From a virus, in the IMG/VR virus record IMGVR_UViG_3300045988_138661: 64,000 nucleotides of DNA. The stretch is one strand, 5' to 3'. Positions 46,139-61,315 of the stretch are shown piece by piece (the first letter of the stretch is position 1; each line of letters opens with the position of its first letter). The notes beneath the pieces are model-generated. The model saw only the letters and a list, made by a program, of their open reading frames with translations, was not told the DNA's origin and did no database searches. The translations under genes were made by a program, and so were the position numbers.

Positions 46139-46168
46139 AATACAAAGTTTAGAAATAATTGCCTTATT

Positions 46169-46681: not shown

Positions 46682-46690
46682 AAATCCTCC

Positions 46691-48334
46691 TTATTTCATT
46701 GCTTCTTTATTTTGAATAGTTTTTTCACTTTTCTAATCATCAGGTTTTTCCGGACGTCCTGCTTCGCCATTAGAAACTTTAGCAGTTCCAGAACCTGAGC
46801 TTCCTGAATTATTTTGAGTTTTATTATTAGATGATGAACCTTTTAAACCCAAAATATCTTCACTACCCATAGTAGAACTCATAAGAGGAGGAATCATAAT
46901 TTCACTTAAATGTAAAATCTCATTTTCAAAATGAGCTGCATTAAGAATAAAACTCTATGAATGTCCAAGAGCAATCTAAGACAATAGTTTTGATTGTCCC
47001 ATTTGCGCTTGTTCTTTATACATTTTAGAAAGTGTTTGATAATTATTCTGAGTAGTTTCTAATAAATAAAATCTAAAATTATATTTCTTATTACTACTCT
47101 TTTTTTCAATAATTCTATTAAAGAATATATTAAACTATAAAATTAAACTTCTTATTGTAGATTCATCATTTAATACTGATTTTTCTAAAGCCATATTGCC
47201 ATCAGTATTAAACAAATTCTATGAAATACCTAATGAATTATAAACACTACGTTCAACTTTAGCTAAATCATCTGTCGTTGTAGTAGTATTTTTATCAGAC
47301 ATATCAATAGAATCTACATCAGTAAATGTAGTTAAAACATCTACTCCAATAGCCCTCTATAACATCTAAACGGCATTATTATGGATATCTCTGGCTTCAT
47401 CAACATCAAATATCAAATCACCATTTTTATCCATTGGGAGCTTTTGGACTAAAATTTTAAGCAACTTCTACATTTGTTTCTTGCGGTCAAGATCTTGCGC
47501 TGCATCTAAATCCATAATAGTAGGAATGGAATTTACAAAAATAGGAACATCACTATTATTAATATTAAATTTAATACAATTTTCTGGCTCAAGAACATAC
47601 CAACTACCAGTATGCTAGCATCCAACCGCATCTTCTAAAGCAAGTTTTCCTTGCTTATATAAAACATAACCTTTAGCAAATTCTTCTGGGAATAATTTTA
47701 ATACTTTTAAGCGATAATTCATATCTTTAAAAGTATCAAAAAATCGCATATCAAATTCGACAACTGGGATATTATTTACACTATAACGTGTTCTACAATA
47801 TCTAACTGGCAATTCTTGTAAAATTAGATTTTTCTCTGAAGGAACTATATATCCATAATAGCATCCATTTTTAACAACTTGCAAAGCAATATCTCCACAA
47901 ATCTTTTTAATATAACTATTATCAAAATAATTCAACATTCTATAAAAATCTTTTAAAACTTTTTCTTCTTTTACATTATCATCATAAGTTTCGGCTGCAA
48001 TATACCAATCATAGCGGTATAAAAAAGCAACATAATTACAAACTCGTTGATATACACCACTTATATCATAATAAAAATTAGAAATGTATCGCAAAGTATT
48101 TAAATCTCTTTCTGCGAGTGCGCGAAGCACATCAGGTTTCGTAATAATACGATTTTGACCTGGGTATCTAATCTTACTATAATCACCAAGTTTTAAAATA
48201 GCATCATCTAAAGTTTTTGTGCCAACTTTTATTTTTCTATTGGCATAATCCGTAGCATCATTATAATTATATTCACAACGACCATTATAAATATCAAAAC
48301 CTTTAGCATGAATCTAATCATTACGATCTTGCGT
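46691..48334 (-). CDS. Putative portal protein of about 547 aa, with TAG and a TTG start.
   Basis: Position between terminase and scaffold. SD taaaggaggtggaacTTTG. Contains ORF 47615..48130 in frame (LRALAERDLNTLRYIS...). TAA at 46693-46691. Confidence 0.5.
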
Positions 48335-48353
48335 ATCCAAAGTTCCACCTCCT

Positions 48354-48710
48354 TTAATAACCTGCTAATTTCATTATATAATCATAAGAAATAAGGTTTT
48401 CGTCGGTATATGGAATCTCTATTAATCTAAAATCATGTAAAGCGCAAAAACGTCTTTTTTGATTATCATTATATTGCTACTGGTATAAACCGCGTTTTCC
48501 GCCAAATTTAGAACTGGCTTCATAATGCTATTTTCCCTAATACTCAATAATGAAATCAATTTTTCCATCATCATCAAATATAACAAAATCAAAACGAAGC
48601 GGACGCCCGCTGGGGCTTTTTAAATCTGGAAAGATATATTCCATTTTAAAAGGTAGTCCTGCTTCTTCTAAGATTTCTTCAATTTTAATTTCTCCTCTTG
48701 AAGCACGCAT
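48354..48710 (-). CDS. Small PD-(D/E)xK-type nuclease-like protein, 118 aa, with TAG (LRFDFVIFDDDGKIDFIIEY-TAG-GK-TAG-HYEAS...). Candidate free-standing homing-endonuclease-like insert.
   Basis: SD taaattaaggagggtggaaaATG directly after the terminase stop. Motif resembles the core of Vsr/DUF559-type endonucleases. Confidence 0.45.
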
Positions 48711-48722
48711 TTTCCACCCTCC

Positions 48723-50462
48723 TTAATTTAAAAAGCACCAATCAGCTGCATTAAACTTTTTACGTTTTTTCTTTTTATCTTCTTCAAGTTTTAAATAATA
48801 TAATCCATATTCAAAAGCCGAAAATTTATCTTTACGAATTCCGCGATTTGCTTGTTTTAGAATAATATTAATACCTTCATTTTCTTCGCGTAAATTCATC
48901 ATTTCTTCTTTTAATATGGAGGTTAAAGTAAATGGTTTTAAATAATCTGCCCTTTGTTCAGGAGTCATTTTTGAACCTTTTTGAGTAGCTAATAATTTTT
49001 CTTTAGCCGTTCTCTCATCTATTAAGAATTTTACCTTACCCGCTTGTAATTGAGTCTGAGCATTAGCATGACATTCAGTATTTATTGGAGCATTTGCTTT
49101 AATAACATACATAGCATCAAATTGAGTATTTGGTGTGCGATATTTTTTATAATATCCATCATCATCATTCTCAACGCCAAAATCAGGTAAAAATTCACCA
49201 TCTTCATCATTTTGAGATTTTACCATATAATCTAAAAGCCCAATACCTAAACCATTACCGTCTATAACTAAAGTTTTAGCTTTATATTTATAAAATAATT
49301 TCTTTAATTTAATAGCCTAATCTTCAAAATGATCATCTGACATAGTATACATATTTACTAATGATTTAATAGCTGGACCTTGAGCTTGTGGTGTTACTTT
49401 AAATACACAAACTACTGAATCGCATCCCTTACGGCCTACATCTACAGAAAGCACATAATAAGCTTGCGCGCCCGCACGTCCAGAAGCTTCATACTCAGGC
49501 TATAATAATTTTCTATTTCTATCAAAATGCTCTCCATTAAAGAAAGCATCTTCAACAGTTCCTGACCACTTAGATTCATATTCACGCTCAAATGAGGCCT
49601 CGTTATAAGTTCCTTCATTCTTTTGGTCAGTAATAAATGTCTTACTTTGTAATCCTACCGCAACAGGAGTTCGCCATGTTCCGCCTAATACCATACAACG
49701 ATCGGGCTAAGTTACCATACGAACTAAGAAACCAATAAGTCTATCATAAGGGAACGTGCCCTTATAACCAGCAGTAGTAATATAGATTTGTGATTTATTT
49801 AATGGCTCTTGCTCATTGGTAGTGCCATCTTTAGCTCTACGGGAAATTGCCATAACAGGAATAATAACTTCACGAAGGATGGCATCATCAATACCAACAC
49901 ACTCTTCCATTAGTCCACCATGACGACGCTGACCACGAGTGCTTTCACGAGCTGCGAGGTTATCTAAAACTGAACCATTTTTAAATACATATCTAACTTT
50001 ATCTTTTCCTTCAAGAGTTTTTCCTCGGCTCCAATCAATTTCTCGATTAAAACTTGGAATAAGTTCACATATTTCTTGAACTTTATCATGAAGAATACTA
50101 GCACCTTGTTCTTTACCTCCAGAAGTAACGAATAGATGCGCACCAGGATACAAAATACATCTAATCATTAATGCCATAACAGACAAAAATGATTTAGAAT
50201 AAGCACGAGGAAAAACCGCGTAAACATACTAATAACGCATAACAGAACGGAGAAATACTCTCTAATAAAAATAAAAATTAAATTCTCCATCTTTTATTTC
50301 AGTGCGTCTTCCTCGCACCATAAAATCTACAAATAAATCAGGATATTCTCTCCAAAAAGCAACGTATTTTCGGATGATGGGCATTACCGCCTCTACTCGC
50401 TCCGGTGATAAACCTATTTTTCTACGGCTATCACTTAACTACAGTAAATCTTGTAATGCCAT
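48723..50462 (-). CDS. terL: Terminase large subunit of about 579 aa, with TAG.
   Basis: Three ORF pieces (48723..49226, 49500..49694, 49707..50186) share one frame. Upstream extension was hand-translated to ATG 50462. Terminase-like segments (LFVTSGGKEQGAS; nuclease region ASFEREYESKW). TAA stop at 48725-48723. Confidence 0.65.
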
Positions 50463-51649
50463 TATTTATTCAAACCCTATAAGAACTCATTATCTTGCGC
50501 GGACTCCTATTCTTTAAATTCCTCAAAGTCCGCGTAATCACTATCTTTAATAGTTTTTTCAAGTTCTTCAATACTTAAATCAGCATCATCAACGATATCA
50601 CTTTCCACGTTCTTTGCTTTCTCTTCATCTTCTTTAGCATTTTCGCGTAAAGCCTTTTCTACCATTGTGCTAATATTAGTTTCATCTTCAATAAGAGTGC
50701 GAGTATAACGTTGCATATCTTGAATAGTTAAATCCACTTTATCATGTGGCTATTCAACATAATATCTTTCAATATATCCTTCTTTTTCACACAATTCAAT
50801 TAATTCACCAATTGAATCAACAAATTCACCTGATTCTGCTTTATTTTGAGCAGCGGTAAATTTACCAGACTTCATTAAGCTATCGTATACTTTGCTCATC
50901 TTTTGGAAACCTTCAATATCACCAATATCGATCAATTGATTTGCCTTTAAAGATGTCTTACATATTAATTTTAGCGTATCTTTGTGTCCGGCACCTTGAA
51001 TATCATAAGAAGCCATCATTTCTTCATACAACTATTCAAGCTTAACCCATTCTTCAGGCTTATAAGTTTTGCCCCATTTAAGTCTTAAATAAGTGCGGTC
51101 TTCATCAGTTAAATCTAATTCTTGTTCCACTTCACCACTCTATTGTGCGAAATAATCTTCCGTAGGAGCATTAGGTGGTGGAGCATAAACCGGCTCTTTT
51201 AGTTCTCCTTCTGGAATAGCGATAGAACTTTTTTCAATAGCAGTTGCAATCTATTGAGCGTCATATCCTTGGCGTTTCATAGTTTGCTCTAATTTATTAT
51301 TTGCCATCTACTGTAAAAATTCTGTATCTTTCCAACGATAATCTTTAAACTATTTGAGTTTCATTTTTGACAAATAACGTCCAAGAATTGTCATACCGGT
51401 CATAGACTGCGGATCGCGCCCATATTTTTCCATTAATTTATTCCATTCGTCTGGGACATAAGGAACATCCGCTTCTTGTAAAATCCATAAATAAGTATCT
51501 GGATTCCAATTATCGACGTGCATTGTCATACATTTTTTGCACACAGGGAATTTACCATCATTAGGATATTTTTCTAAATTATTAGATGAATAAAATTCCG
51601 TGCCATTCATTGTGCGGTTACATTTTTCGCAATAATATGTTTCAGCCAT
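50462..51649 (-). CDS. Protein with an N-terminal zinc ribbon (CEKC...CKKC) and an acidic C-terminus, 395 aa, with 6 TAG. Possible terminase small subunit or DNA-binding protein.
   Basis: ORFs 51350..51649, 50750..51031 and 50507..50737 share one frame. All intervening codons were hand-checked (TAG only). TAA at 50464-50462 overlaps the terminase ATG (TAATG). SD aaggagaatatcttatttATG. Confidence 0.45.
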
Positions 51650-51698
51650 AAATAAGATATTCTCCTTTCAATTATTTATTATAAACAAAAGGACAATA

Positions 51699-52754
51699 TT
51701 AAGATTTTTTGGCCTTAGAATTTCGACAACTTTTACAAATACTATAAAAGCCATCTTTACTTGTTTTATTTTTACTAAAATATTTATTGTGAGCTAATTT
51801 TATTTTGCCACAACGACTACATTTTTTATATTTACCTTTTTCAACATTTAAATAATAATTATCTAAGTATTCATCTTCCGCAGTCGAAGCAATTAATTTT
51901 GGAATTTTATTACGCCATAAACTTGAAATATATTCAAGGCTGTGCTTAATACCAAATTCCATTTGTATTTTCTCTTGAATGTCAATATTTTGTAAACCAT
52001 CAATTTTATATTCAACGATTCTATCATAAAGAGGATAATTAGCTAAAGCTTTATCACAAAGTTTATCAAAATCCTCCATTAAATACCATAAATCTTTATC
52101 ATATTCGCCCCAACTATCTTGCTTTAATCGGGAATAATTACATAAAATCGCAGAACATATCTCAGGTCTTAATAAACTAATTCCATCAGGAATGGGAAAA
52201 CCATCATCATCAAAAATAAATGTTTCATCATCTAATGGAATATAAGACTTTGATCTGGTTAATTTTGTAGGCACTATTGGACGACGATAAGCATTTTTTA
52301 TAACATACTAATCTTTACGCATTTCAATAAGAGCCTTTTTAATAACAAAAGCATCTTTACCTTCTGTTACTTTTAATTTAGCCTCCCAAACATTAATGGC
52401 TTCTCTTAACTAATTTAAACTTGGTATCTCTTCTAAATCTTTTTTTGTAATTGTAATATGTGGTTGAAATATTGTATTTCTATTATCTGTAATTAAATTA
52501 TAAATTCCATCTTCGCCATTTTCGAGTTGGGAAACAAGACCTTCAAAAGAAGTCTCACGTTTATTAACTGTAGCCATACGATTATCAGTTAATAATTTTT
52601 TCTCCTTTTTTTCTTGTTTCTCCATACAAAGAACCAAATAGTCTGCTAAAATTTCTAAATACTTTTCAGGCGGATCTGGATTATCAGCCAAAATTTGTTC
52701 GACTAATTGATTTCTTTCTTCTGGAGTTTGTAAAGAATAATCAAGTTTTATCAT
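51699..52754 (-). CDS. Hypothetical protein, 351 aa, with a C-terminal zinc ribbon (CSRCGK...CKSCRNSK) and 2 TAG. First gene of the leftward arm.
   Basis: ORFs 52410..52754 and 51699..52274 share one frame; the gap was hand-checked. SD ggaggtaaaaaATG. TAA at 51701-51699. Confidence 0.45.
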
Positions 52755-52946
52755 TTTTTACCTCCAGTCTATGTTTATATTATACTCGAAAAAATTTTTT
52801 TTGTCAAGTTTCATTTAAAAATTTTTCTTTTTATATTTAAAAATTTTTTTAACAAAACAAATAACTTTTGCCCAATCACGCCCTACGATTTGACATTTTT
52901 TATTTTTTATTTTATTATTATTATAAGAAAAAGAAAAGGAGTATTT
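52755..52946. promoter_or_regulatory. Divergent promoter region separating the leftward recoded arm from the rightward standard-code arm.
   Basis: Minus strand: TTGACA-N18-TATAAT then SD. Plus strand: TTGACA-N17-TATTAT then aaaggag and ATG at 52947. Very AT-rich. Confidence 0.5.
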
Positions 52947-53339: not shown

Positions 53340-53712
53340 AGTAAGAGGAATAGATGCGGTAATATTTAGATTAGAACAAGAATATTCTAACGCAACAAGA
53401 GATAAAGATCCTTTTGTAAGAGATTGGAAATTATTTAAAACAATACGTATTGAGAAAAAGGATAATGGGTCAAGAACAATTACTTACAGACCTTTATCAG
53501 ACGCGGAAAAGGCTCAATTAAGCACCAAAGAAGAACAAGAAGAATATCAGTTAAACAAATACAAATATGTATTAGAGCACTTAATGGAAAAATATGATAT
53601 AAATACTATTAATAGATATATTGATAGTTGTAAATATAAAGATAAATTAATTGAATATATTGAGAAAAAATTAAATGCGGAAACCACTCAGCCCTTTGAA
53701 GGCAATTGCTAA
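53317..53712 (+). CDS. Hypothetical protein, 131 aa.
   Basis: ATG 53317 with SD gaggatattgaaaATG, overlapping the previous gene end. Confidence 0.5.
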   Translation: MGRNQPFEVRGIDAVIFRLEQEYSNATRDKDPFVRDWKLFKTIRIEKKDNGSRTITYRPLSDAEKAQLSTKEEQEEYQLNKYKYVLEHLMEKYDINTINRYIDSCKYKDKLIEYIEKKLNAETTQPFEGNC

Positions 53713-53802
53713 AAAGTGTCAGCAGAAAGTCACTTATTCTGTTACTTCTGGATTATACACTCTTATGCAGGGTGAGAAACCTAAAAGAGGTAGAAAAAAG
53801 AA

Positions 53803-53920
53803 ATCATGATTTGAAATTAAAAATTGATTTGTTGTTTTAACCGTATTCTGAAATTGAAAATTGATTTAGATAAATTTAAATTATTCTTCGTGATTTGAAA
53901 TTGAAAATTGATTTAGATTG
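53803..53920. repeat. Three direct repeats of about 25 bp (core GAAATTGAAAATTGATTT), spaced about 42 bp apart. Iteron-like.
   Basis: tgatttgaaattaaaaattgattt / ctgaaattgaaaattgatttagat / tgatttgaaattgaaaattgatttagat, inside a 570-bp non-coding stretch. Confidence 0.6.
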
Positions 53921-54092
53921 CGTTTTGACCACGCAAAAGGAAAAACACAAATAAAAAAAAATTTTTTCCCGAAATACACCCCCGCCCTATAAGGTTCTAA
54001 CTTGTTTATTCTCTGAGAGTATACCAGCCTTACTCTCGCTCTTTTGCGGAACGCAAGACCCCATCCCGCATAAATGCCCCGGTAAACGTTGC

Positions 54093-54135
54093 TCGGCTCG
54101 CTGGCGGTAGTGGCGAGCCGAGTTTTATAAAAATC
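54093..54135 (+). terminator. GC hairpin plus U-tract (ctcggctcgc tggcggtagtg gcgagccgag ttttat); copy E of the GC-hairpin module.
   Basis: 10-bp stem. Followed by TTGCACAAA..ATGCACAAA and a promoter. Confidence 0.5.
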
Positions 54136-54289
54136 AGCAGTTTGCACAAATTTCTCGCCGAAACTTCGTCATAATGCACAAACATCAAAATGCCCGAAAC
54201 TACGCCATCACATTTGGGTAAAATGACTATTGACAATCCAGTAGCCATGTGCTATACTTGTATCATCAAAAAGAAAGAGGTAAATCAAA

Positions 54290-54655
54290 ATGAAGAACAT
54301 TTCCAAAATCATCACCATGGCCATTGCTATCATTCTCTCCGTGTCTTTCTTTGGCCCGTTCCACGACCACACAACCGCGGAAGCCTGTGAGGAAGCGCCC
54401 CAGTCCTACGACCTCTCGGTCATTGAGAATTGGTGCGGTTCAGGCACGGAGCGCGGAAGTATCCGTTTCGTCGGCGCAGAGGTCTATGAGCGCGAGGGCG
54501 ATACACTGACGCTCATTGATGAGCAAGGCAATCTGTGGGACGTGGAAGCACTCAACATTGATGACAACGACTTCTTGCTCTTGTGGATTAACGACAATGA
54601 CACTGACACTGTGGAAGATGATACAATCATTAAGGTATGGAGAGAGGCTTACTAA
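54290..54655 (+). CDS. Secreted small protein, 121 aa, with a signal peptide (MKNISKIITMAIAIILSVSFFGP).
   Basis: ORF track. Promoter tattgacaatccagtagccatgtgctatact. RBS aagaaagaggtaaatcaaaATG. Confidence 0.6.
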   Translation: MKNISKIITMAIAIILSVSFFGPFHDHTTAEACEEAPQSYDLSVIENWCGSGTERGSIRFVGAEVYEREGDTLTLIDEQGNLWDVEALNIDDNDFLLLWINDNDTDTVEDDTIIKVWREAY

Positions 54656-54684
54656 GTCTCTCTCTTTCTTGCGGATCGGCGAAG

Positions 54685-54702
54685 ATTGTTAAAAAATTAA
54701 CA
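54685..54702. promoter_or_regulatory. Perfect palindrome TTGTTAAAAAATTAACAA (operator-like), about 25 nt upstream of a -35 hexamer. Also at 55109-55126, and a variant at 59041-59058.
   Basis: ggcgaagATTGTTAAAAAATTAACAAg and ggcgtagATTGTTAAAAAATTAACAAa are near-identical 27-mers. Confidence 0.5.
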
Positions 54703-54783
54703 AGCAAAGAAGAGTAAAAAACTCTTGACAAATGCGCAATGATGTGCTACAATGTAGATACAATAAGAAAGGGGAATACTCAG

Positions 54784-55074
54784 ATGACTAATAAGAATTT
54801 TTATAATGCTCTCAAAGCAGAAAAGGAACGGTTGATGAACGAAAGCAAGCAGGCATCCCGCGACTGCCAGATTAAGCATGGTGAGATGTCAAAGGCATGG
54901 AACATTGTCAATGCCCTTGAAAGCTTGGGTAAGTTTGGCACGCAGGAACTCAGCAACGCGTATGATAACTATGAGGAAGCCAGCTACGCAAGTATGTTAG
55001 CAGACAACCACTTCGATGACATTGATGAAGCCATTGATAAGATAAATGGATTGATGGGTCTTTACGAAGAATAA
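54784..55074 (+). CDS. Hypothetical protein, 96 aa.
   Basis: Promoter cttgacaaatgcgcaatgatgtgctacaat. RBS aaaggggaatactcagATG. Terminator agggagcagtaatgctccct. Confidence 0.6.
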   Translation: MTNKNFYNALKAEKERLMNESKQASRDCQIKHGEMSKAWNIVNALESLGKFGTQELSNAYDNYEEASYASMLADNHFDDIDEAIDKINGLMGLYEE

Positions 55075-55204
55075 GGGAGCAGTAATGCTCCCTTTCTAAC
55101 GGCGTAGATTGTTAAAAAATTAACAAAGATTTTTCTCAAAAAGGTCTTGACAAATCAGTTAGAATGTGGTATTCTATAATCACAAAGGGAAAGGGGAAAG
55201 AAAA

Positions 55205-55414
55205 ATGATTTATGGCATTGTTTATTATACTAAGGGCGGTCAGGGCTATCTCTTCCAGCAAGCGTTCGAAGAACAGCGCGCTATGGAGATTGCAGGTAAG
55301 ATGAACGACTTACTCGCGACAGGTGCTACGATGTATAATGATAAGTCCTATGGCAAGCTCGACTTGCGGAACGTTGAGTATTTCACAGTTGAACCCAGTA
55401 GCGAAATGTATTAA
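55205..55414 (+). CDS. Hypothetical protein, 69 aa.
   Basis: Promoter cttgacaaatcagttagaatgtggtattctataat. RBS aaaggggaaagaaaaATG. GC hairpin plus T-tract terminator follows. Confidence 0.55.
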   Translation: MIYGIVYYTKGGQGYLFQQAFEEQRAMEIAGKMNDLLATGATMYNDKSYGKLDLRNVEYFTVEPSSEMY

Positions 55415-55599
55415 GGGCGGGAGCGGGCTCCCCGCTCTTTCTCTTGCGCCGTGGGGCGCGTGTAGAGCGTCCCAGCCCGAACTTTATCACAGTAAAGCAT
55501 TAAAGCAAAATTTTTTCCATTTTTTGCCAAAAACCACTTGACATTCCTATCCCGAAATGCTATAATAGTATCATCAAAAGAAAGAAAGAGGTAAATCAA

Positions 55600-55722
55600 A
55601 TGTCTATTCACGATGGTCTTGTTCTTCTCGCTATCTATGTTGGTGTTATCGGCGCGGGCGCGCTCATCGAATACGTGGAGCACCGCGTAAAGAGAGCGGT
55701 TCATCGCAGAAAGAGAAGTTGA
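55600..55722 (+). CDS. Hydrophobic micro-protein, 40 aa (MSIHDGLVLLAIYVGVIGAGALIEYVEHRVKRAVHRRKRS): one TM helix plus a basic tail.
   Basis: Own promoter (cacttgacattcctatcccgaaatgctataat), RBS and terminator (agagaagtt gaaaa aacttctct ttttttt). Confidence 0.4.
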   Translation: MSIHDGLVLLAIYVGVIGAGALIEYVEHRVKRAVHRRKRS

Positions 55723-55776
55723 AAAACTTCTCTTTTTTTATAAAAAACACTTGACAAATCCAACAGCCGGTGCTAT

Positions 55777-55925
55777 ACTATAATTGTCAAGAGGGGAAGA
55801 GATAAGTTACTTCCCAAAGGGTGTGTGGCAAGTAGCCATTTCCTTTGATAAAACGCTTAGTTGGAGCGACCAGACAGGGCGCGCACTGTCCGCAAAAGTA
55901 GAGAATAAAAAAATTCCAACTTCTC
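55777..55925 (+). ncRNA. Candidate non-coding transcript from promoter 55751-55776; begins UGUCAAGAGG and contains hairpins.
   Basis: No credible ORF (track ORF 55784..56023 runs across the next promoter). Stem gggaag/cttccc and gacag-ggcgcgca-ctgtc. Confidence 0.3.
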
Positions 55926-56104
55926 AAAAAAACCTCTTGACAGACCCCTTAGAGTGTGATACAATAAGGATGTCAAGAGGCAGACAGGAGCGAACAACCT
56001 CTCCCCAATGCGTAGTTGGGTGAAGTAAAACAAAATCTCCCTACCGAACAAAAAAGTTCAAAAAACCTCTTGACAAACCCCTTAGAGTGTGATACAATAA
56101 GGGT
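55924..56104 (+). repeat. Tandem duplication of a 44-bp promoter unit (aaaaacctcttgacaNaccccttagagtgtgatacaataagg) at 55924-55967 and 56061-56104.
   Basis: Near-identical copies. The first is followed by AUGUCAAGAGG..., the second by the tRNA-like element. Confidence 0.6.
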
Positions 56105-56110
56105 ACAGAT

Positions 56111-56222
56111 GGCGGTGAGGTAGAACGGTTCTACTTCCACAAAGATGGCTGAGATACAAAAGTGTCGCTCACTTGGAAACGTTCGCTATTGGAAAATGTG
56201 GGTTCAACTCCCACCACCGCCT
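56111..56222 (+). tRNA. tRNA-like element of 113 nt: 7-bp acceptor stem (GGCGGTG/CACCGCC), D-arm (GTAG-AACGGTT-CTAC) and canonical T-arm (GTGGG-TTCAACT-CCCAC). Has an insertion of about 40 nt in the anticodon region, so either an atypical or intron-containing tRNA, or a tRNA-like RNA.
   Basis: Arms identified by hand. Possible anticodon stem 56136-56140 / 56189-56193 enclosing the insert. The promoter places the TSS about 5 nt upstream. Length is atypical and the anticodon is unresolved. Confidence 0.45.
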
Positions 56223-56302
56223 CAAAATTTTTTGAAAAAACACTTGACAAATCCAAAAGTAGATGTTATAATGTAGATACAATAAGAAAGGGGATAAAAA
56301 CC

Positions 56303-56566
56303 ATGACTACTTACAACATTCTCACTATTGGCCCTTCTCGTGAACCGAAGCTCGCGGGCAAGTTCAACGTTGCGGATACTGAAAACTTCCTTGACCGGTT
56401 AGAGGAAACGCTCTACATTCTCTTTGAATTAGAGCCGAAATCCCGCGAATGGAAACGCGAATTTCTCAAACATCTTTTTGCGGAATTCACTTATCACTTT
56501 TGCGAAGATTCCCGCGTTGAAAAGCAAGGCAACAATATTATCGTTTATGAAGAAAATGAGGGCTGA
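56303..56566 (+). CDS. Hypothetical protein, 87 aa (MTTYNILTIGPSREPK...).
   Basis: Promoter cacttgacaaatccaaaagtagatgttataat. RBS aaaggggataaaaaccATG. Terminator gggctgaaaaagccc plus T8. Confidence 0.6.
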   Translation: MTTYNILTIGPSREPKLAGKFNVADTENFLDRLEETLYILFELEPKSREWKREFLKHLFAEFTYHFCEDSRVEKQGNNIIVYEENEG

Positions 56567-56682
56567 AAAAGCCCTCATTTTTTTTCAAACTTTTTTCAAA
56601 AAACTATTGACATTTACTGCCCTAAGTGGTATTATAATATCAGAAAGGGAAAGGAAAATCCCGAACACCAGAAAGGTTAGCT

Positions 56683-56874
56683 ATGGATACTTTCGAAATG
56701 TATTACGAGAAATTCATGAAGATGCGCAAGGCTGACATTATTCGCGAGGGTCAGACTTGGGATATTTGGGCAAACTGCCAAAGCACTGCCGATAGCCTGA
56801 TGAAGTGGACAAAGCCCGTTCTTGCGAGAGTTCTTGCTGGACGCCTGGACCGTTTGGAAAAGCGGGGCTACTAA
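56683..56874 (+). CDS. Hypothetical protein, 63 aa.
   Basis: ORF track. Promoter ctattgacatttactgccctaagtggtattataat. Terminator agcggggctactaagccccgct. Confidence 0.55.
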   Translation: MDTFEMYYEKFMKMRKADIIREGQTWDIWANCQSTADSLMKWTKPVLARVLAGRLDRLEKRGY

Positions 56875-56959
56875 GCCCCGCTTCTTTCTTGAAAAAAGTT
56901 CTTGACAAATCTCGAATCTATGGTATAATAAGAGTATAAAAGGAAAGGGGATAAACAAA

Positions 56960-57199
56960 ATGACTTTGGACATGATTAAAAATGTAATTGGCACGGTAAA
57001 AGGCGCGCTGATGTTCTATGAGGGGAATGGCGTCGAAGTGATAAACGAAAACACTTGCGGTCGCTATCTCAAAGACCGCAAAGGTCGCATGACTTTGAAT
57101 GGTGATGTGTTAGACGCAAGCGAAGAGTGGGTGCTGGGATTGCCGGTCAGCGATTTGAAAGCCAGAGATAACGTTCTCATTATTTATGTTGATGGCTAA
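56960..57199 (+). CDS. Hypothetical protein, 79 aa.
   Basis: ORF track. Promoter cttgacaaatctcgaatctatggtataat. Terminator atctcccc aaaaa tggggagat plus T7. Confidence 0.55.
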   Translation: MTLDMIKNVIGTVKGALMFYEGNGVEVINENTCGRYLKDRKGRMTLNGDVLDASEEWVLGLPVSDLKARDNVLIIYVDG

Positions 57200-57253
57200 A
57201 ATTAAATTTTTTGAATTAAAAATCTCCCCAAAAATGGGGAGATTTTTTTGTAC

Positions 57254-57440
57254 ATTTTATCTATTGACAATCCCAAAACTTCATGGTATAATCGGCCGGC
57301 GCGCGAACGGACCTGGCGCGCCGAGTTTTTGTCAATAGGCGGGTTGCACAAATTTTTGGGGCAAATCTTTGTGCATAATGTCAATAGACAGAATCCCGAA
57401 TTGGTGCTATACTATAATCACAGTAAGGGAAGGAAAACCT
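57254..57440 (+). promoter_or_regulatory. GC-hairpin module copy A: promoter P1 (TTGACA 57254 / TATAAT 57277), GC hairpin 57283-57315 (cggccGGCGCGCgaacggacctgGCGCGCCgag) plus T5, TTGTCAAT, dyad TGCACAAA-N17-TTTGTGCA, then promoter P2 (TAGACA-N17-TATACT).
   Basis: Read directly from the sequence. Comparable modules at 60790-60960 (B), 62828-63010 (C), 59041-59250 (D) and 54093-54280 (E). Confidence 0.5.
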
Positions 57441-57464
57441 ACCAAACCGGAAAGGGATAACAAC

Positions 57465-57773
57465 ATGATTAACATTCGTTCTATTCTCAAACTCGCTGAA
57501 AATGACGGTCTGACCCTCAAACATGGCAAGAAGGTCAATTACAAGTCCGGCTGGCAGGTCGCCACTAATGGCGTTGAATGTAAGACCGCCCGCGAAGCCA
57601 TTAACGCGGTCAAGGAATATGGCGGCAACTGCGGCGTGTGGTTTGCGAACGGCATTTATTATGTTGACAAGTCCAAGAGGGTGCAGACCAAGAAGCAGGC
57701 GCTTGAAATCGGCAAGGCGTGCAACCAAATCAGTGTATATGGCTGGGCGCGCGGCAATCTGGCTTACTGCTAA
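57465..57773 (+). CDS. Hypothetical protein, 102 aa.
   Basis: RBS ggaaagggataacaacATG. ORF track frame. Confidence 0.6.
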   Translation: MINIRSILKLAENDGLTLKHGKKVNYKSGWQVATNGVECKTAREAINAVKEYGGNCGVWFANGIYYVDKSKRVQTKKQALEIGKACNQISVYGWARGNLAYC

Positions 57774-57851
57774 AAAATTAAATAGAGGGCTTGACAAAAC
57801 AAGCCCTCTATGCTATAATAAAGGCACAATAAAGGAAAGGGAGAAAACAAC

Positions 57852-58121
57852 ATGGAAATTAAATATGCTCACGAAATGGCGGCTATCGCTAAGGACATCC
57901 GCACCGCCAAGCGCGCCAAAGATACTGCTACGGCCCGCGCCTATCTTGAAGAAAACCTGATGAAAGATATTGAAGACCACGCGGAAAAAGGCGAGAATTA
58001 TCTGTCTCGCTGTCTCGTTGCCATTGAAGATGAAGCCGTGAAAGAAGCCTTAAAAAATCTTTTGCGGAATTATGGCTATACAACTTCTTATTCAAACGGC
58101 GTTCTCACCGTAAGGTGGTAA
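57852..58121 (+). CDS. Hypothetical protein, 89 aa.
   Basis: ORF track. Promoter with the -35 hexamer inside the palindrome agagggcttgacaaaacaagccctct. Terminator agagggaaaatttttccctct plus T. Confidence 0.6.
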   Translation: MEIKYAHEMAAIAKDIRTAKRAKDTATARAYLEENLMKDIEDHAEKGENYLSRCLVAIEDEAVKEALKNLLRNYGYTTSYSNGVLTVRW

Positions 58122-58225
58122 GGTAAAAGAGGGAAAATTTTTCCCTCTTTTTCTAAAAAACTTCTTGACAAATCCAAAAGCAGATGTTATAATAAAAGCA
58201 CAATAAAGGAAAGGGGAATAAATTA

Positions 58226-58297
58226 ATGGAATGTCCTTATTGCGATGGAAAGTGCGGAACACATGCTCAATGCGTTAAATGCGGAAAAGGGAAATAA
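58226..58297 (+). CDS. Candidate 23-aa Cys-rich micro-protein (MECPYCDGKCGTHAQCVKCGKGK), a zinc-ribbon-like peptide.
   Basis: Strong RBS aaaggaaaggggaataaattaATG. Four CxxC-type Cys pairs. Confidence 0.3.
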   Translation: MECPYCDGKCGTHAQCVKCGKGK

Positions 58298-58299
58298 AA

Positions 58300-58656
58300 A
58301 TGGGAACGGAATTCTTAATTATTGGCGGAATTTTTAGCGCAGTCCTTGCGCTGTTTGTCTGCCTTGTCTGTTGGTGCCGCATGGAAAAGTCTCACCCAAT
58401 AGTCAGATTGTTAGTTGGTATCCTTATTTCGTGCGCCATCGGTTATGGCATGACGGGCGCGTTAGTCGCAGAACATAATGCCGATAGAAAAGCATGGAAC
58501 AACGGCTATTGCTCCATTTGCGGAAATGAAATGGAATTTGTAAATGCTTCTCATGGTCGGCATGGAACAGTTTATTACTATTGGTATTGCGATGAGTGCG
58601 GTCATACGTTAGAGTTAACTTCTAACTTTGCAAAGGGGGAAACAGATAATGAATGA
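58300..58656 (+). CDS. Membrane protein with two TM helices plus a C-terminal zinc ribbon (CSICG...CDECG), 118 aa.
   Basis: RBS ggaaaagggaaataaaaATG. ORF track frame. Confidence 0.55.
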   Translation: MGTEFLIIGGIFSAVLALFVCLVCWCRMEKSHPIVRLLVGILISCAIGYGMTGALVAEHNADRKAWNNGYCSICGNEMEFVNASHGRHGTVYYYWYCDECGHTLELTSNFAKGETDNE

Positions 58657-58855
58657 AAAAACTATCCCACAGGCTTTGAGAGAACAGGCAGACGCCATTG
58701 AAAAGTTAGCTCAAAGAATTGCGAAAGAAAGCAAGGAATTTCCAGACGAGGAAGACCGCAGAGACGGCGGAGAACTTGCGGACGCTTTATTTGCGATTCA
58801 ATCAAAGCTCCGCTATGAGTACTCTTGGATTGCGGAAACCATGTGGGACGTGTAA
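58649..58855 (+). CDS. Hypothetical acidic protein, 68 aa.
   Basis: RBS caaagggggaaacagataATG, overlapping the previous stop. Terminator tcaggcgagat ttaat tatctcgcctga plus T. Confidence 0.5.
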   Translation: MNEKTIPQALREQADAIEKLAQRIAKESKEFPDEEDRRDGGELADALFAIQSKLRYEYSWIAETMWDV

Positions 58856-58934
58856 TTTTCAGGCGAGATTTAATTATCTCGCCTGAAAATTTTTTTCAAA
58901 AAACTATTGACAAACTCACCCCGTTGTGGTATTA

Positions 58935-59036
58935 TAATCATGTCAAGAGGAAGTGGTAAGCCTCTTGAAGTAGTGAACAAATTTCTCATACTATGGTTTG
59001 CGCGGTAGCCGATAATTACCGCGCCCTTTCTATTTC
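58935..59036 (+). ncRNA. Candidate small RNA or leaderless micro-ORF transcript. Starts AUGUCAAGAGG, has a 5-prime hairpin caagagg/cctcttg and a terminator gcgcggta-gccgataat-taccgcgc plus T-run.
   Basis: Promoter ctattgacaaactcaccccgttgtggtattataat immediately upstream. A possible 22-aa leaderless ORF (MSRGSGKPLEVVNKFLILWFAR) ends at TAG. Confidence 0.3.
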
Positions 59037-59258
59037 ATTTTTGTTAAAATTTTAACAATGATTGTTCGGCCGGGCGCGCACGGACCACGCGCCCGGAATT
59101 TCAATTATATCACAGGGCCAGCAATTTGTCAAGCAAAAAGTCGCGAAAATTTGCATAAATTATTTTTCCCAATTTTGTGCGATCCGTCAATAGACAAATC
59201 TCTAAGAGTGTGTTATATTATAATTGTTCCAAGGGAACAGAAAGATGAGGTAAATAAA

Positions 59259-59465
59259 ATGACTAACTACAACATTCACTCTTTTATCAAGACCCAGCTT
59301 CTCCATGCCGAGCAGATGCCCAGCGATGCCGAACTTTTCAAGCATAACGCCTATGGCGCAGTCTCGTGGGAGTTATATCGCACGAATGACCATGCCCTTG
59401 AAGAACAGTGGGCAAATGTATATGCTCCCAAGTTCGACGCCATCATCAGAAATTATCATTTCTGA
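59259..59465 (+). CDS. Hypothetical protein, 68 aa (MTNYNIHSFIK...).
   Basis: RBS gatgaggtaaataaaATG. Promoter tagacaaatctctaagagtgtgttatatt. Confidence 0.55.
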   Translation: MTNYNIHSFIKTQLLHAEQMPSDAELFKHNAYGAVSWELYRTNDHALEEQWANVYAPKFDAIIRNYHF

Positions 59466-59534
59466 TAAAAAGGGCTTGACAAAAGCCCTTTCGCATGATA
59501 TAATACATATACAATCAAGAAAGAGGTAAAACAA

Positions 59535-59873
59535 ATGCTTATCAAAATGTCAAAACACGCCACGCAAGACCGCATTGACCGCCTGCTCTTCATCTACGAT
59601 AATGTAGGAATCGGCGAACCGTATATCGACAGTGTTGAGGACGATGTTCTCTACACTATCACTACAACAGGTATTCTTCTTGTTCGTAGTGCTAAGGACG
59701 GAACACTCATTACAGCCTATATCGCGGATATTGATAAAATCACCGCAATATGGAGAAATAAGCACGGCGAGCGCCCTATGCCTGATAACCTTTACAAGCG
59801 GGTTCTCGCAAACGCGTTCTTTGATAGAATGTGGAATAAGCAAGAAAAGGAGAAAAAGAAAAATGTTCGGTAA
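59535..59873 (+). CDS. Hypothetical protein, 112 aa.
   Basis: ORF track. Promoter with the -35 hexamer inside aaagggcttgacaaaagcccttt. Confidence 0.6.
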   Translation: MLIKMSKHATQDRIDRLLFIYDNVGIGEPYIDSVEDDVLYTITTTGILLVRSAKDGTLITAYIADIDKITAIWRNKHGERPMPDNLYKRVLANAFFDRMWNKQEKEKKKNVR

Positions 59874-60216
59874 GAAAAAGAAGCCTTTCAATCCATATGA
59901 AAAACGCGCGGACGATGCGCTTTATGAAGTATGGGAAACGCGCGACCGCCTTTATGAAAAGACAAGGCAAGTCATTACGCGCGTAGGGGTGATTAACCTT
60001 TACCCCAATGGCGCTGACCGCGAGAAAGCCGTCTCTGACGCCGAAGAAGCGAAGCACGCTTTGCTTGTAGCTATTGGAGCATACGACACCGCGCGCATGG
60101 AATACAATGATTATGTTGAAAAAAACGCGGAAAAGTTTGACAACCATAAAGAAAAATGGACTACCACGAGCCATGAAATTATCGAATGGGCTTACAAATA
60201 CTATTATAAAGGGTGA
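59863..60216 (+). CDS. Hypothetical protein, 117 aa.
   Basis: RBS aaaaggagaaaaagaaaaATG, overlapping the upstream gene end. Confidence 0.55.
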   Translation: MFGKKKKPFNPYEKRADDALYEVWETRDRLYEKTRQVITRVGVINLYPNGADREKAVSDAEEAKHALLVAIGAYDTARMEYNDYVEKNAEKFDNHKEKWTTTSHEIIEWAYKYYYKG

Positions 60217-60221
60217 ATAAA

Positions 60222-60455
60222 ATGAAGATTACTATTAAGAATAATAAACTCGCCCCCTTTGGAGAAATTGCCAAGGGCGTAGTTTTCAAAGACCCGACCG
60301 CCGAAGATTATTACATCAAAATCGCCGCAGAGGTCGATGAAAATACCGGTGATGATGAATGGAATTGTCTCCATTTGGACAATTACGCTCTCGACTGTTT
60401 CGGCCTAAAAGATATGGTTCTCCCCATCTACGATGCGGAACTGATTATTCCCTGA
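60222..60455 (+). CDS. Hypothetical protein, 77 aa.
   Basis: RBS aaagggtgaataaaATG. Hairpin ggcggttgt-accccaaaaa-acaaccgcc follows. Confidence 0.55.
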   Translation: MKITIKNNKLAPFGEIAKGVVFKDPTAEDYYIKIAAEVDENTGDDEWNCLHLDNYALDCFGLKDMVLPIYDAELIIP

Positions 60456-60568
60456 TAAAACCGGACTTTGTCCGCGTTTCTCTCCCCCTTTCCTATGGCT
60501 TTGGCGGTTGTACCCCAAAAAACAACCGCCACCCTTTCCAAAAAATAAATTGAATGGAGATAAAAAAG

Positions 60569-60745
60569 ATGAAGAATGAGAAACTTAGTGAGGTTGTTAA
60601 AACTGTGTGCTTGATGGCACGATACGGCATTCAGAAGGGATATCCCTCGGGCGGGACAGAAGCAAATGACATGATTGAACGTGTCGCGCTTCTTGAAAAC
60701 AAGCTCGTTCCCATTCTCGTCGACCTTGAAGCCGTAGAAAACTAA
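60569..60745 (+). CDS. Hypothetical protein, 58 aa.
   Basis: RBS aatggagataaaaaagATG. Terminator aatcacccaa tttgggtgatt plus T8. Confidence 0.5.
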   Translation: MKNEKLSEVVKTVCLMARYGIQKGYPSGGTEANDMIERVALLENKLVPILVDLEAVEN

Positions 60746-60967
60746 ATGAAAAATCACCCAATTTGGGTGATTTTTTTTGTTTACTTTCACTATTGACAAA
60801 GTTCCTTGAATGTGATAAAATCGTCGGCGCGCGGACGATTGTGGCGCGCCGAGTTTTTTGTCAAGAGGTAAGTTCAACAAATTTTCGCACGAATTTTTGT
60901 GTAAAATGCCAATAGACAAAAATCCTATAATGTGGTAAGATGTATACAACAAATAGAGGGGGCTAAA

Positions 60968-61315
60968 ATGATGGTTGCATGGTATTGGTTAATTCTCGCG
61001 TTTTGCGTGGGTATTGCGTTCGCTACAATCACTGATGAGTGGTATGATTGGGAAAACACTTTAACTGACATTCTTGCATGGATTGCTCTGATTATCGGCT
61101 TCGTTCCTTTGACTTTCTATTGCATATTTCTCAAACTGACGGTTTTCCACCCCACTACGCGAGAGAAGTTTGAGGAAGTCAAAAAGGTTAGCGAAGAAAC
61201 TTGTAAAATCTATCGAGTATGCGGAAACGTGTATTTCTGGATTGACCTTAAAGCAACAAAAATCTATAACAAGGTATTCTTTATTCGAGTAAAGGAAACT
61301 GAAAACAATGGGTGA
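60968..61315 (+). CDS. Small membrane protein, 115 aa.
   Basis: RBS aaatagagggggctaaaATG. Preceded by GC-hairpin module copy B. Confidence 0.55.
   Translation: MMVAWYWLILAFCVGIAFATITDEWYDWENTLTDILAWIALIIGFVPLTFYCIFLKLTVFHPTTREKFEEVKKVSEETCKIYRVCGNVYFWIDLKATKIYNKVFFIRVKETENNG

What the first reader, a model, noticed from the sequence alone, without database searches (positions are those of the whole stretch)
53713..54289. 570-bp non-coding region with an iteron array, a candidate origin or control region
Three 25-bp direct repeats (GAAATTGAAAATTGATTT core) with about 42-bp periodicity lie beside an A/T tract and a structured GC-rich segment that ends in a hairpin plus U-tract. No ORF is present. 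This matches iteron-type origins or an array of regulator binding sites.
Basis: seen in the sequence. Interest (0 to 1): 0.55.

Follow-up and report, generated by a model that had tools for sequence, protein, structure and literature searches.

The report
Conserved phage packaging-site-like boundary element
The three repeats are real, but they are extra copies of one box of a 106-bp non-coding element conserved in dozens of lineages of large gut phages; it sits between the DNA-packaging genes and the early genes, so it is more likely the site where the genome is cut and packaged than a replication origin.

Summary
The three 21-bp repeats exist at 53810, 53847 and 53894 (3 matches against 0.10 expected). 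Their spacing is 37 and 47 bp, not a 42-bp period. The first 97 bp of the flagged interval holds a conserved 44-aa ORF. The GC hairpin with a T-tract (54092-54128) is real.

The window is part of a ~190-kb human-gut phage that reads TAG as sense. The last repeat belongs to a ~106-bp element (53885-53990) that occurs once in the window. It consists of CGTAAT/GAAAT-GAAAAT, TGYCCAGACAAAAG, an A-run/T-run and TTTTTCCCGAAATACACCCCC. I found 58 full copies, with length varying by at most 1 bp, in 53 diverged lineages. No RNA structure is conserved and there is no Rfam match. The repeat box was multiplied independently in at least three lineages; most lineages carry one copy.

In every lineage the element lies 1.7-4.6 kb from a TerL/portal operon of SPbeta type. 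It also marks a jump from AT-rich DNA to a GC-richer early module full of consensus promoters. SPbeta's mapped pac site lies in the equivalent intergenic region. Phages with related TerL have measured 284-323-bp terminal repeats preceded by AT-rich repeats.

- **Best reading:** terminase recognition and genome-end region (~0.45).
- **Rivals:** iteron origin (~0.2); transcription control or small RNA (~0.15).

Physical DNA ends were not testable here.

The parts
53675..53809 (+). Conserved 44-aa ORF with a basic, AT-hook-like tail (KPKRGRKKKS). It overlaps the first 97 bp of the flagged interval and stops 1 nt before repeat 1.
   Evidence: called as a gene in ENA assemblies; conserved in relatives; a homologue sits elsewhere in L042.
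53805..53834 (+). Repeat copy 1 (21-mer at 53810-53830, 1 mismatch). Its upstream flank CATGAT is a degenerate Box 1.
   Evidence: nhmmer partial hit 53804-53831.
53842..53871 (+). Repeat copy 2 (CGTATT + 21-mer at 53847-53867). Its TTGAAA, together with TAAATT at 53877-53882, makes a moderate sigma-A-like promoter (9 of 12) pointing at copy 3.
   Evidence: nhmmer partial hit 53840-53870.
53885..53990 (+). Clade-wide element of ~106 bp, constant in length and present once in the window. It contains Box 1 CGTGAT (53889-53894), Box 2 = repeat copy 3 (53894-53914), a small hairpin TTGCGT/ACGCAA (53918-53936) overlapping Box 3 TTGACCACGCAAAAG (53925-53939), an A9T6 tract (53953-53967) and Box 4 TTTTTCCCGAAATACACCCCC (53963-53983).
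   Evidence: 76.4 bits, one full copy in 64 kb; 58 full copies, indel 0 or -1; 53 diverged representatives.
53984..54091 (+). GC- and C-rich non-coding spacer. Sequence homology between the two sub-types of close relatives ends about 15-25 nt right of Box 4. The 3' part carries CCCC motifs.
   Evidence: GC rises from 0.20-0.25 to 0.39-0.53.
54092..54128 (+). GC hairpin (10-bp perfect stem, 11-nt loop) followed by TTTTAT. It looks like an intrinsic terminator or insulator on the + strand.
   Evidence: z = -3.96. Hairpins with different stems occur at the same place in most lineages.
54158..54208 (+). Two 15-nt direct repeats, CCGAAACTTCGTCAT and CCGAAACTACGCCAT, 36 bp apart. They echo the CCCGAAAT core of Box 4.
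   Evidence: not statistically enriched.
54230..54258 (+). First early promoter (TTGACA-17-TATACT with TG extension), followed by a ribosome-binding site and gene 54290-54655. It is the first of about 24 such promoters in the 43% GC early module.
52779..52918 (.). Divergent consensus promoters (- at 52807-52779, + at 52890-52918). This is where the gene strand switches and the GC-skew turns.
46691..52757 (-). Packaging operon, TAG read as sense: 351-aa phrog_5767 protein (51699-52757), 395-aa YonG_N-like protein (50462-51667), 579-aa YonF-type TerL (48723-50465), 415-aa portal (inside the 46691-48370 open frame). A YonD_N-like gene follows at 45092-46690.

Best explanation
The repeats are extra copies of the left-hand box of a conserved cis-acting DNA element that marks the packaging start and genome end of this phage clade.

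Proposed mechanism (inferred, not shown):
1. A small-terminase-type protein of the adjacent operon (the YonG_N-like 395-aa protein and/or the 351-aa protein) binds the CGTAAT-GAAAT-GAAAAT boxes.
2. The A-run/T-run helps bending or opening of the DNA.
3. The YonF-type TerL cuts at or just right of the invariant TTTTTCCCGAAATACACCCCC box.
4. DNA is packaged leftwards, through the boxes toward the terminase genes, as in SPbeta.
5. The GC-richer non-coding block to the right would then be a short terminal repeat or lie next to one. The early module would be packaged last and injected first.
6. The hairpin at 54092-54128 insulates the early promoters from read-through.

Shown here: the conservation, the constant length, the single copy in the window, the copy-number behaviour of the box, and the synteny.

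Inferred: which proteins bind, where the cut falls, the direction of packaging, and the presence of a terminal repeat.
For: 1. **A duplex-DNA element rather than an RNA.**
   - 58 full copies vary in length by at most 1 bp, across 53 representatives that differ by more than 10%.
   - RNAalifold predicts 0 conserved pairs.
   - Rfam finds nothing.
   - The boxes have no significant fold.
2. **Single copy.** The window holds one full copy in 64 kb.
3. **Linkage to the packaging genes.** In every lineage the 351-aa / YonG-like / TerL / portal operon lies 1.7-4.6 kb upstream on the - strand. TerL and portal were identified.
4. **Synteny with SPbeta.**
   - The order yonD-yonE(portal)-yonF(TerL)-yonG on the - strand, followed by the divergent yonP|yonR gap, matches the window.
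   - SPbeta's pac site and genome opening point were mapped to that gap, with packaging running toward yonP (bioRxiv 10.1101/2021.11.22.469490, sections 18 and 24).
   - That gap holds 5 of the 10 ATCGTAA heptamers in 35 kb. This heptamer resembles Box 1 (TCGTAAT).
   - The GenBank record of the SPbeta-like phage BUCT082 starts inside that gap and reads toward yonP.
5. **TerL relatives have measured defined ends.**
   - Tsamsa has a 284-bp terminal repeat, Thrax1-5 284-285 bp and Sundance 323 bp (PMC9703825 section 8).
   - TerL identity to these phages is 33-35%.
   - At the Thrax1 junction, an AT-rich repeat tract (16-26% GC) with TGGTGRAATTTTTG repeats abuts a 41-45% GC, C-rich terminal repeat. 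The window has the same layout.
6. **A boundary in composition and in homology.**
   - GC is 7-13 points higher to the right of the element in all 17 loci tested.
   - Two unrelated right-hand modules join the same element a few bases after Box 4.
7. **Recurrent amplification of the box**, with periods of 37/47, 29 and 31 bp, as expected for a cooperative binding site.
8. **A distant relative shows the same pattern.** Enterococcus phage H1 (TerL 47% identical) has a ~1-kb repeat-filled gap at the same position, followed by an early promoter.
Against: - No physical end was observed. Contig ends near the element scatter and do not pile up at one nucleotide. These are mostly bulk metagenomes, and conserved DNA itself breaks assembly graphs, so this test is inconclusive.
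- Sequence similarity to the SPbeta pac region is limited to one heptamer. There is no similarity at the presumed cut point.
- In Tsamsa-like phages the ends lie ~28 kb from TerL, and the ends of phage c-st are not syntenic either. Closeness to TerL is therefore not a rule in this TerL clade.
- The loci were retrieved by an exact 17-mer (one more lineage entered through the repeat 18-mer), so the near-invariance of Box 4 is partly selection. The other boxes and the constant length are independent of that.
- The phAss-1 phage (TerL 45% identical) lacks the element in the 92 of its 136 kb that I searched.
- The basis for the start of the BUCT082 record is unknown.
Confidence: 0.45

Rival explanations
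1. Iteron-type origin of replication. An initiator binds the repeated boxes, the A9T6 tract melts, and replication starts beside the early genes.
For: - Direct repeats lie next to an A/T tract and a GC-rich flank, laid out as at the lambda origin and plasmid origins (own knowledge).
- The element is single-copy and strongly conserved.
- The box multiplies recurrently.
- The cumulative GC-skew minimum lies within ~1 kb.
- One lineage (L036) has three perfect DnaA boxes 320-350 nt downstream of Box 4.
Against: - No initiator gene is linked. The neighbouring + strand genes have no family match and are not conserved with the element.
- Most lineages have one box only.
- Spacings of 37, 47, 29 and 31 bp are neither regular nor in helical phase.
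- There are no DnaA boxes in the window or in 18 of the 19 other loci checked.
- The skew turns where the gene strand switches (~52.8 kb), already upstream of the repeats, so it carries no information.
Confidence: 0.2
2. Transcription-control unit or small RNA. In this lineage the 47-bp repeat units create sigma-A-like promoters (TTGAAA-17-TAAATT) that would start an RNA near 53889. That RNA would run through Box 4 and the C-rich segment and end at the 54092-54128 terminator (~240 nt). Its CCCC motifs could pair with Shine-Dalgarno sequences, in the manner of RsaE/RoxS. Alternatively, the region only insulates the early module.
For: - A promoter-like site at 53854-53882 (9 of 12) predicts a start at Box 1 of copy 3.
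- There is a significant terminator hairpin.
- GC hairpins with different stems occur at the same relative place in most lineages.
- C-rich runs lie upstream of the hairpin in several lineages.
Against: - No sigma-A promoter is conserved upstream of Box 1. Seven of the 22 loci tested had no candidate reaching the scan's threshold, and the candidates in most of the others were weak and placed inconsistently.
- In several lineages an upstream terminator abuts Box 1.
- No consensus RNA structure exists, and the whole segment folds no better than shuffles.
- There is no Rfam match.
- The T-tract is short in several lineages.
Confidence: 0.15
3. Operator array for a regulator of early transcription, or a T5-like stop signal for DNA injection at the edge of the first-injected module.
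For: - The position is exactly at the inner edge of a module of ~24 consensus early promoters.
- In many lineages the box is partly palindromic, and its two halves vary together.
Against: - The boxes lie 330 bp from the nearest early promoter and are absent from all other promoters.
- The spacing between the palindrome halves varies (3-7 nt), which is unlike a site for a protein dimer.
- No evidence bears on stepwise injection.
Confidence: 0.08

Closest known systems
pac site / genome opening point of Bacillus phage SPbeta (yonP-yonR intergenic region)
   Same: - The packaging genes are homologous (YonD_N, portal, YonF-type TerL, YonG_N) and lie in the same order and on the same strand.
- The site lies in the divergent non-coding gap at the head of that operon.
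- Short repeated motifs with a CGTAA core are clustered there.
- An A/T-rich stretch lies toward the presumed cut.
   Different: - SPbeta has ~8.5 kb more genes (yonH-yonP) between yonG and the site.
- SPbeta has five ATCGTAA copies (three direct, two inverted) spread over 230 bp, not tandem 21-mers.
- SPbeta has nothing like Box 3 or Box 4.
- SPbeta is temperate and uses the standard genetic code.
- Function here is inferred, not mapped.
Short direct-terminal-repeat junctions of Tsamsa/Thrax (Tyrovirus) and Sundance phages, which package in the T7 manner
   Same: - The TerL belongs to the same clade (33-35% identity).
- A non-coding AT-rich tract with direct repeats abuts a GC-richer, C-rich non-coding block of a few hundred bp.
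   Different: - The ends of those phages are ~28 kb from TerL.
- The repeat sequences differ (TGGTGRAATTTTTG against TTTGAAATTGAAAATTGATTT).
- Their terminal repeats were measured from reads; here no read data were available.
cosB/cosN of phage lambda and pacL/pacR of phage SPP1 (terminase small-subunit binding repeats next to a cut site)
   Same: - Repeated binding boxes lie on the terminase-gene side of a conserved cut region.
- Spacing is fixed, and a bendable A/T segment lies between boxes and cut region.
   Different: - The proteins are unrelated in sequence.
- The site is separated from the packaging operon by a small + strand operon and is not inside or directly upstream of terS.
- Copy number varies from 1 to at least 4.
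Iteron origins (the lambda origin, iteron plasmids)
   Same: Direct repeats of about 20 bp lie beside an A/T-rich stretch and a GC-rich flank.
   Different: - There is no linked initiator gene.
- One box suffices in most lineages.
- The spacing is irregular.
- There are no DnaA boxes.

Membership tests
Iteron-type replication origin | Several (usually at least 3-4) directly repeated initiator sites at regular, helically phased spacing | tested here: not met
   The window has three copies, spaced 37 and 47 bp. Close relatives have 1-4 copies. Most lineages have one copy.
Iteron-type replication origin | Adjacent A/T-rich region that can unwind | tested here: met
   An A9T6 tract lies at 53953-53967 inside an A-rich stretch (53940-53967). 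An A-run/T-run is conserved across lineages.
Iteron-type replication origin | Cognate initiator (Rep, O-like or replisome-organiser) gene containing or flanking the iterons | tested here: not met
   The flanking + strand proteins have no Pfam or PHROG match. The upstream genes differ between lineages (FolD-like, Pth2-like, AbrB-like and others; these labels are my own reading of the translations, not tool matches). Replication genes elsewhere in the 190-kb genome were not examined.
Iteron-type replication origin | Supports replication; copy-number peak during infection | not testable with these tools
   This needs marker-frequency data or a plasmid replication assay. The GC-skew follows gene orientation and carries no information.
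Terminase recognition / genome-end region of YonF-type (SPbeta/Tsamsa) packaging systems | The phage encodes a TerL of the clade whose members have a mapped pac site or short terminal repeats | tested here: met
   PHROG terminase and portal hits. tblastn gives 35% identity to Sundance YonF and 33% to Thrax and Kirov; unlisted Bacillus records, presumably including SPbeta-like phages, also match. Pfam YonD_N and YonG_N domains are on record for the neighbouring genes. Measured ends are reported in PMC9703825 and in the bioRxiv preprint.
Terminase recognition / genome-end region of YonF-type (SPbeta/Tsamsa) packaging systems | Single non-coding site in the divergent gap at the head of the packaging/late operon (the SPbeta arrangement) | tested here: met
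   single copy; SPbeta map; same linkage in all lineages.
Terminase recognition / genome-end region of YonF-type (SPbeta/Tsamsa) packaging systems | Sequence homology to a mapped pac or terminal-repeat region | tested here: inconclusive
   Only the CGTAA(T) core is shared with SPbeta, where the heptamer is enriched 5 of 10 in 2.7% of the DNA. One ATCGTAAT and some GAAATT-type repeats occur at the Thrax1 junction. There is no alignable homology.
Terminase recognition / genome-end region of YonF-type (SPbeta/Tsamsa) packaging systems | Virion DNA ends (pile-up of read starts, doubled-coverage block) map to the site | not testable with these tools
   No reads were available. As a proxy I looked at contig ends, which show no pile-up; that proxy is confounded.
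Described RNA families (Rfam 15) | Covariance-model score at or above the gathering threshold | tested here: not met
   The best match is fstAT on the - strand, at 23.6 bits against a gathering score of 72 (E = 0.085). RNAalifold predicts 0 pairs.
Intrinsic terminator (for 54092-54128 only) | GC-rich stem-loop followed by a U-tract, downstream of a transcription unit | tested here: met
   A 10-bp perfect stem with z = -3.96 is followed by UUUUAU.

The most novel reading that the evidence does not exclude
The 106-bp element is not an ordinary pac site. It would be a clade-wide 'genome boundary' signal that combines several roles: packaging start, leading end for injection, and a barrier between two expression regimes. 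On one side lies a GC-richer early module in the standard genetic code, driven by ~24 host-type promoters. On the other lies the AT-rich remainder, in which TAG is read as sense. The element might act as a T5-like first-step-transfer stop, or it might be read by an unknown phage or host factor, which would explain why it stays nearly invariant while every neighbouring gene changes.
Probability: 0.08. Interest if true: 0.8.

Novelty: new member of a known kind. Interest (0 to 1): 0.45.

Why it matters
- **Genome ends.** If the element marks the genome end and packaging start, its sequence (for example TTTTTCCCGAAATACAC preceded by the CGTAAT-GAAAT box) could serve as a marker. It would orient and cut open assemblies of a large, uncultivated clade of 80-200-kb Clostridia phages from gut and other metagenomes (mostly human gut by record name).
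- **Injection order.** It would predict which end enters the cell first.
- **Code switch.** It would locate the edge between the standard-code early module and the TAG-recoded late genes. That edge bears directly on the idea that stop-codon recoding times late gene expression.
- **Experiments.** It gives a defined DNA ligand for testing which of the unannotated YonG-like and 351-aa proteins is the small terminase.
- **If it is an origin instead.** It would be a conserved origin with no linked initiator, which would also be useful to know.

Tried and rejected
- **Known RNA families.** The Rfam gathering scan of the window and the permissive scan of 53700-54320 gave nothing credible.
- **Conserved RNA structure.** RNAalifold on 14 lineages predicted 0 pairs. 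An imperfect hairpin over Box 1-2, with G·U pairs on the + strand, looked attractive: the + strand is more stable in 14 of 17 lineages (mean -6.4 against -4.3 kcal/mol). It is not significant against shuffles in the window, so I dropped it.
- **A conserved sigma-A promoter upstream of Box 1.** Not general.
- **Other promoter types.** I compared the sequence by eye with promoter consensus sequences recalled from memory for SigD, SigH, sigma-54, ECF sigma factors and SPO1 gp28. None fits with conserved spacing.
- **DnaA boxes.** Only lineage L036 has them.
- **CCCGAAA as a repeated operator.** Three + strand copies in 64 kb is not above my rough estimate.
- **Nucleotide similarity to GenBank phages.** None was found.
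- **phAss-1.** This TAG-recoded gut phage was opened at ends predicted by PhageTerm, but it lacks the element in the 92 of 136 kb that I searched.
- **c-st.** Its 404-bp terminal repeats are not syntenic with this locus.
- **Genome-collection scan.** The 15-mer was too short, and nearly all matches were chance. Only L177 and L074 are real.
- **Contig-end pile-up as a proxy for physical ends.** Inconclusive.
- **Solved structures.** The PDB sequence search for the YonG-like and 351-aa proteins found nothing.
- **Chimeric assembly as the cause of the GC jump.** Rejected. The junction is identical in five independent assemblies, and the jump recurs in all lineages.

Full report
**1. What is in the sequence**

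- The 21-mer TTTGAAATTGAAAATTGATTT occurs at 53810, 53847 and 53894. It occurs nowhere else in the window at up to 3 mismatches. Shuffles give 0.10 expected matches.
- The start-to-start spacing is 37 and 47 bp. The '42-bp periodicity' is only the mean of these two values.
- The flagged interval is not free of ORFs. A 44-aa ORF (53675-53809) was called in public assemblies and is conserved in relatives. The non-coding stretch is 53810-54289.
- To the right lie, in order:
  - a small hairpin (53918-53936);
  - an A9T6 tract (53953-53967);
  - a GC- and C-rich segment;
  - a perfect 10-bp GC stem with TTTTAT (54092-54128), at -23.7 kcal/mol and z = -3.96.
- The GC-rich segment as a whole folds no better than shuffles.

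**2. Where the window comes from**

- The window belongs to a 190,948-bp human-gut contig. The junction is base-for-base identical in the four complete copies, apart from one substitution in L004; a fifth, shorter contig (L001) covers only its first 430 bp. The sharp compositional break is therefore not a chimera.
- Left of about 53,960 the DNA is ~29% GC and the genes are on the - strand. Long ORFs (up to 2,760 aa) appear only if TAG is read through.
- Right of that point the DNA is ~43% GC. It carries small + strand genes, each behind a near-consensus TTGACA-17-TATAAT promoter. There are about 24 such promoters in 10 kb.
- The - strand operon that starts at the divergent promoters (~52,800) encodes four proteins:
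  - a 351-aa phrog_5767 protein;
  - a 395-aa YonG_N-like protein;
  - a 579-aa terminase large subunit;
  - a 415-aa portal protein.
- The closest isolates are large siphoviruses of Firmicutes, which share this TerL type: Enterococcus H1/VRE9/EF1, Geobacillus E3, phAss-1, Sundance, Tsamsa/Thrax and further, unlisted Bacillus records.

**3. The repeats are part of a clade-wide element**

- Exact-pattern scans of IMG/VR and JGI/ENA metagenomes retrieved the repeat core and, independently, the 17-mer TTTTTCCCGAAATACAC from many contigs of 1-400 kb.
- Aligned on the 17-mer, the upstream ~85 nt line up almost without gaps, although the flanks cannot be aligned.
- A profile built from 16 lineages finds 58 full copies in the metagenome loci. 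Their length differs from the model by 0 or -1 nt. After merging copies that differ at 12 or fewer of 120 positions, 53 representatives remain.
- Conserved blocks, in order:
  - Box 1, CGTAAT;
  - Box 3, TGYCCAGACAAAAG;
  - an A-run/T-run;
  - Box 4, TTTTTCCCGAAATACACCCCC.
- The near-invariance of Box 4 is partly a result of how I searched. The other boxes and the constant length are not.
- The window holds one full copy (76 bits) and two partial copies of Box 1-2.

**4. Behaviour of the box**

- Close relatives of the window phage carry 1, 2, 3 or 4 copies, built from two unit types of 37/38 and 47 bp.
- Other lineages amplified the same box independently:
  - two copies at 29 bp in L177;
  - at least four copies at 31 bp in L288, and two copies in L255.
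- Most lineages have one copy.
- The boxes show no conserved RNA structure, no significant fold and no Rfam match.
- This is the behaviour expected of a protein-binding site on duplex DNA where extra copies are tolerated or useful.

**5. Position**

- In every lineage the 351-aa / YonG-like / TerL / portal operon lies 1.7-4.6 kb upstream on the - strand.
- A variable set of small + strand genes separates that operon from the element.
- The DNA to the right of the element is 7-13 GC points richer. It begins with 150-500 nt of non-coding DNA that usually contains a strong GC hairpin, followed by early promoters.
- Among close relatives, two unrelated right-hand modules are joined to the same element. 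Their homology ends 15-25 nt after Box 4.

**6. Comparison with mapped systems**

- *SPbeta.* It has the same gene order (yonD, yonE portal, yonF TerL, yonG on the - strand) followed by the divergent yonP|yonR gap.
  - Restriction mapping and PhageTerm place the pac site and genome opening point in that gap, with packaging running toward yonP (bioRxiv 10.1101/2021.11.22.469490).
  - A precise ~250-bp block of raised coverage follows the opening point in that study.
  - The gap holds 5 of the 10 ATCGTAA heptamers found in 35 kb. This heptamer resembles Box 1.
  - The record of the SPbeta-like phage BUCT082 starts inside the gap. I do not know how its start was chosen.
- *Phages with related TerL and measured ends.* Tsamsa has a 284-bp terminal repeat, Thrax1-5 284-285 bp and Sundance 323 bp (PMC9703825).
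  - At the Thrax1 junction an AT-rich tract of repeats (16-26% GC, with TGGTGRAATTTTTG copies) directly precedes a 41-45% GC, C-rich terminal repeat.
  - The window shows the same layout: 20-25% GC at the repeats, then 39-53% GC after Box 4.
- *Enterococcus phage H1.* It has a ~1-kb repeat-filled gap at the corresponding place.

**7. Interpretation**

- **Terminase recognition and genome end (about 0.45).** This reading explains the most facts:
  - the single copy;
  - the linkage to the packaging operon;
  - the fixed architecture;
  - the variable number of boxes;
  - the coincidence with a boundary in composition and in sequence homology;
  - the position of the early module, which would be packaged last and injected first.

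  It remains an inference. I could not examine reads, and contig ends gave no signal.
- **Iteron origin (about 0.2).** This is not excluded, but it lacks its defining partner, a linked initiator gene. It also lacks regular spacing and DnaA boxes, which appear only in L036. The GC-skew turn follows gene orientation.
- **Transcription control or small RNA (about 0.15).** A promoter-like site created by the 47-bp unit, together with the terminator, could yield a ~240-nt C-rich RNA in this lineage. The promoter is not conserved across lineages.
- **Operator array or injection-stop signal (about 0.08).**

**8. Novelty**

- I found no description of this element. The only paper on related TAG-recoded gut phages (PMC10607447) does not discuss ends beyond a PhageTerm cut, and its phage lacks the element in the 92 kb I searched.
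- The kind of feature is known: a cis-acting packaging or genome-end region, or possibly an origin.
- This particular element is new in its clade-wide near-invariance, its constant length and its position at the boundary between the two genetic-code regimes. It is also easy to test.

Noticed in passing
window 1-52757 (- strand) versus 54290-64000 (+ strand): TAG is read as sense in the AT-rich left part. ORFs of 2,583 and 2,760 aa, TerL, portal and others become intact only with TAG read through. Long ORFs that need TAG read-through are confined to the left part; the GC-richer right-hand module consists of short genes. The switch in composition and in coding regime falls at the element under study.
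   Followed up: partly
window 54230-63800: About 24 near-consensus sigma-A promoters (cTTGACAAA-N14-TGnTATAAT, often behind a terminator and an A-rich upstream element) lie in 10 kb, each driving a small gene. Parts of the 5' leaders are repeated (…TATAATGTAGATACAATAAGRAAGG), which shows up as a recurring 'CYNVDTIRKG' in spurious ORF translations. The layout resembles the host-takeover modules of SPO1/Twort-like phages and T5.
   Followed up: partly
window 56111-56222 (+), promoter 56070-56098: A tRNA-like RNA of 112 nt matches Rfam tRNA at 37 bits and folds with z = -3.63. It has acceptor, D and T arms but about 50 extra nt inside the anticodon arm. ARAGORN does not call it. It could be an intron-containing or decoy tRNA, and is of interest in a TAG-recoded phage that needs a suppressor tRNA.
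   Followed up: partly
window 55414-56110: About 700 bp holds four consensus promoters (55538, 55751, 55937, 56070) but no convincing ORF. These may be small non-coding RNA genes.
   Followed up: no
L036, +323 to +354 relative to Box 4: Three perfect DnaA boxes (TGTGGATAA, TTATCCACA, TTATCCACA) lie within 35 bp, just upstream of the first early promoter. They occur in this one lineage only.
   Followed up: partly
L011 and L049 (both from IMGVR_UViG_3300032167_000002, 402,311 bp): One 402-kb 'viral' contig carries two different versions of the element. This suggests a concatenation of two related phage genomes or a misassembly.
   Followed up: no
all lineages, 4 kb either side of the element (for example L006, L034, L035, L042, L064): The early module is 6-13 GC points richer than the packaging/late side in every lineage examined. 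The difference in composition is therefore a property of the clade, not of this genome.
   Followed up: partly
window 53675-53809: The 44-aa protein ends in KPKRGRKKKS, which resembles an AT-hook (my own reading). Its gene stops 1 nt before the AT-rich repeats. A homologue exists in L042 but is not adjacent to the element there.
   Followed up: partly
L199, about 110 nt upstream of Box 4: A second TTTTTCCCGAAAT motif and two extra CGTAA boxes lie just upstream of the regular element. Box 4-like sequence can therefore also be duplicated.
   Followed up: no
L074 (Oscillospiraceae MAG contig, 1,653 bp): A diverged copy of the element lies next to what I read as a Cro/CI-type (XRE) repressor gene on the opposite strand (a translation by eye, not a tool match). 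Some relatives may therefore be temperate, and the host range probably includes Oscillospiraceae.
   Followed up: no
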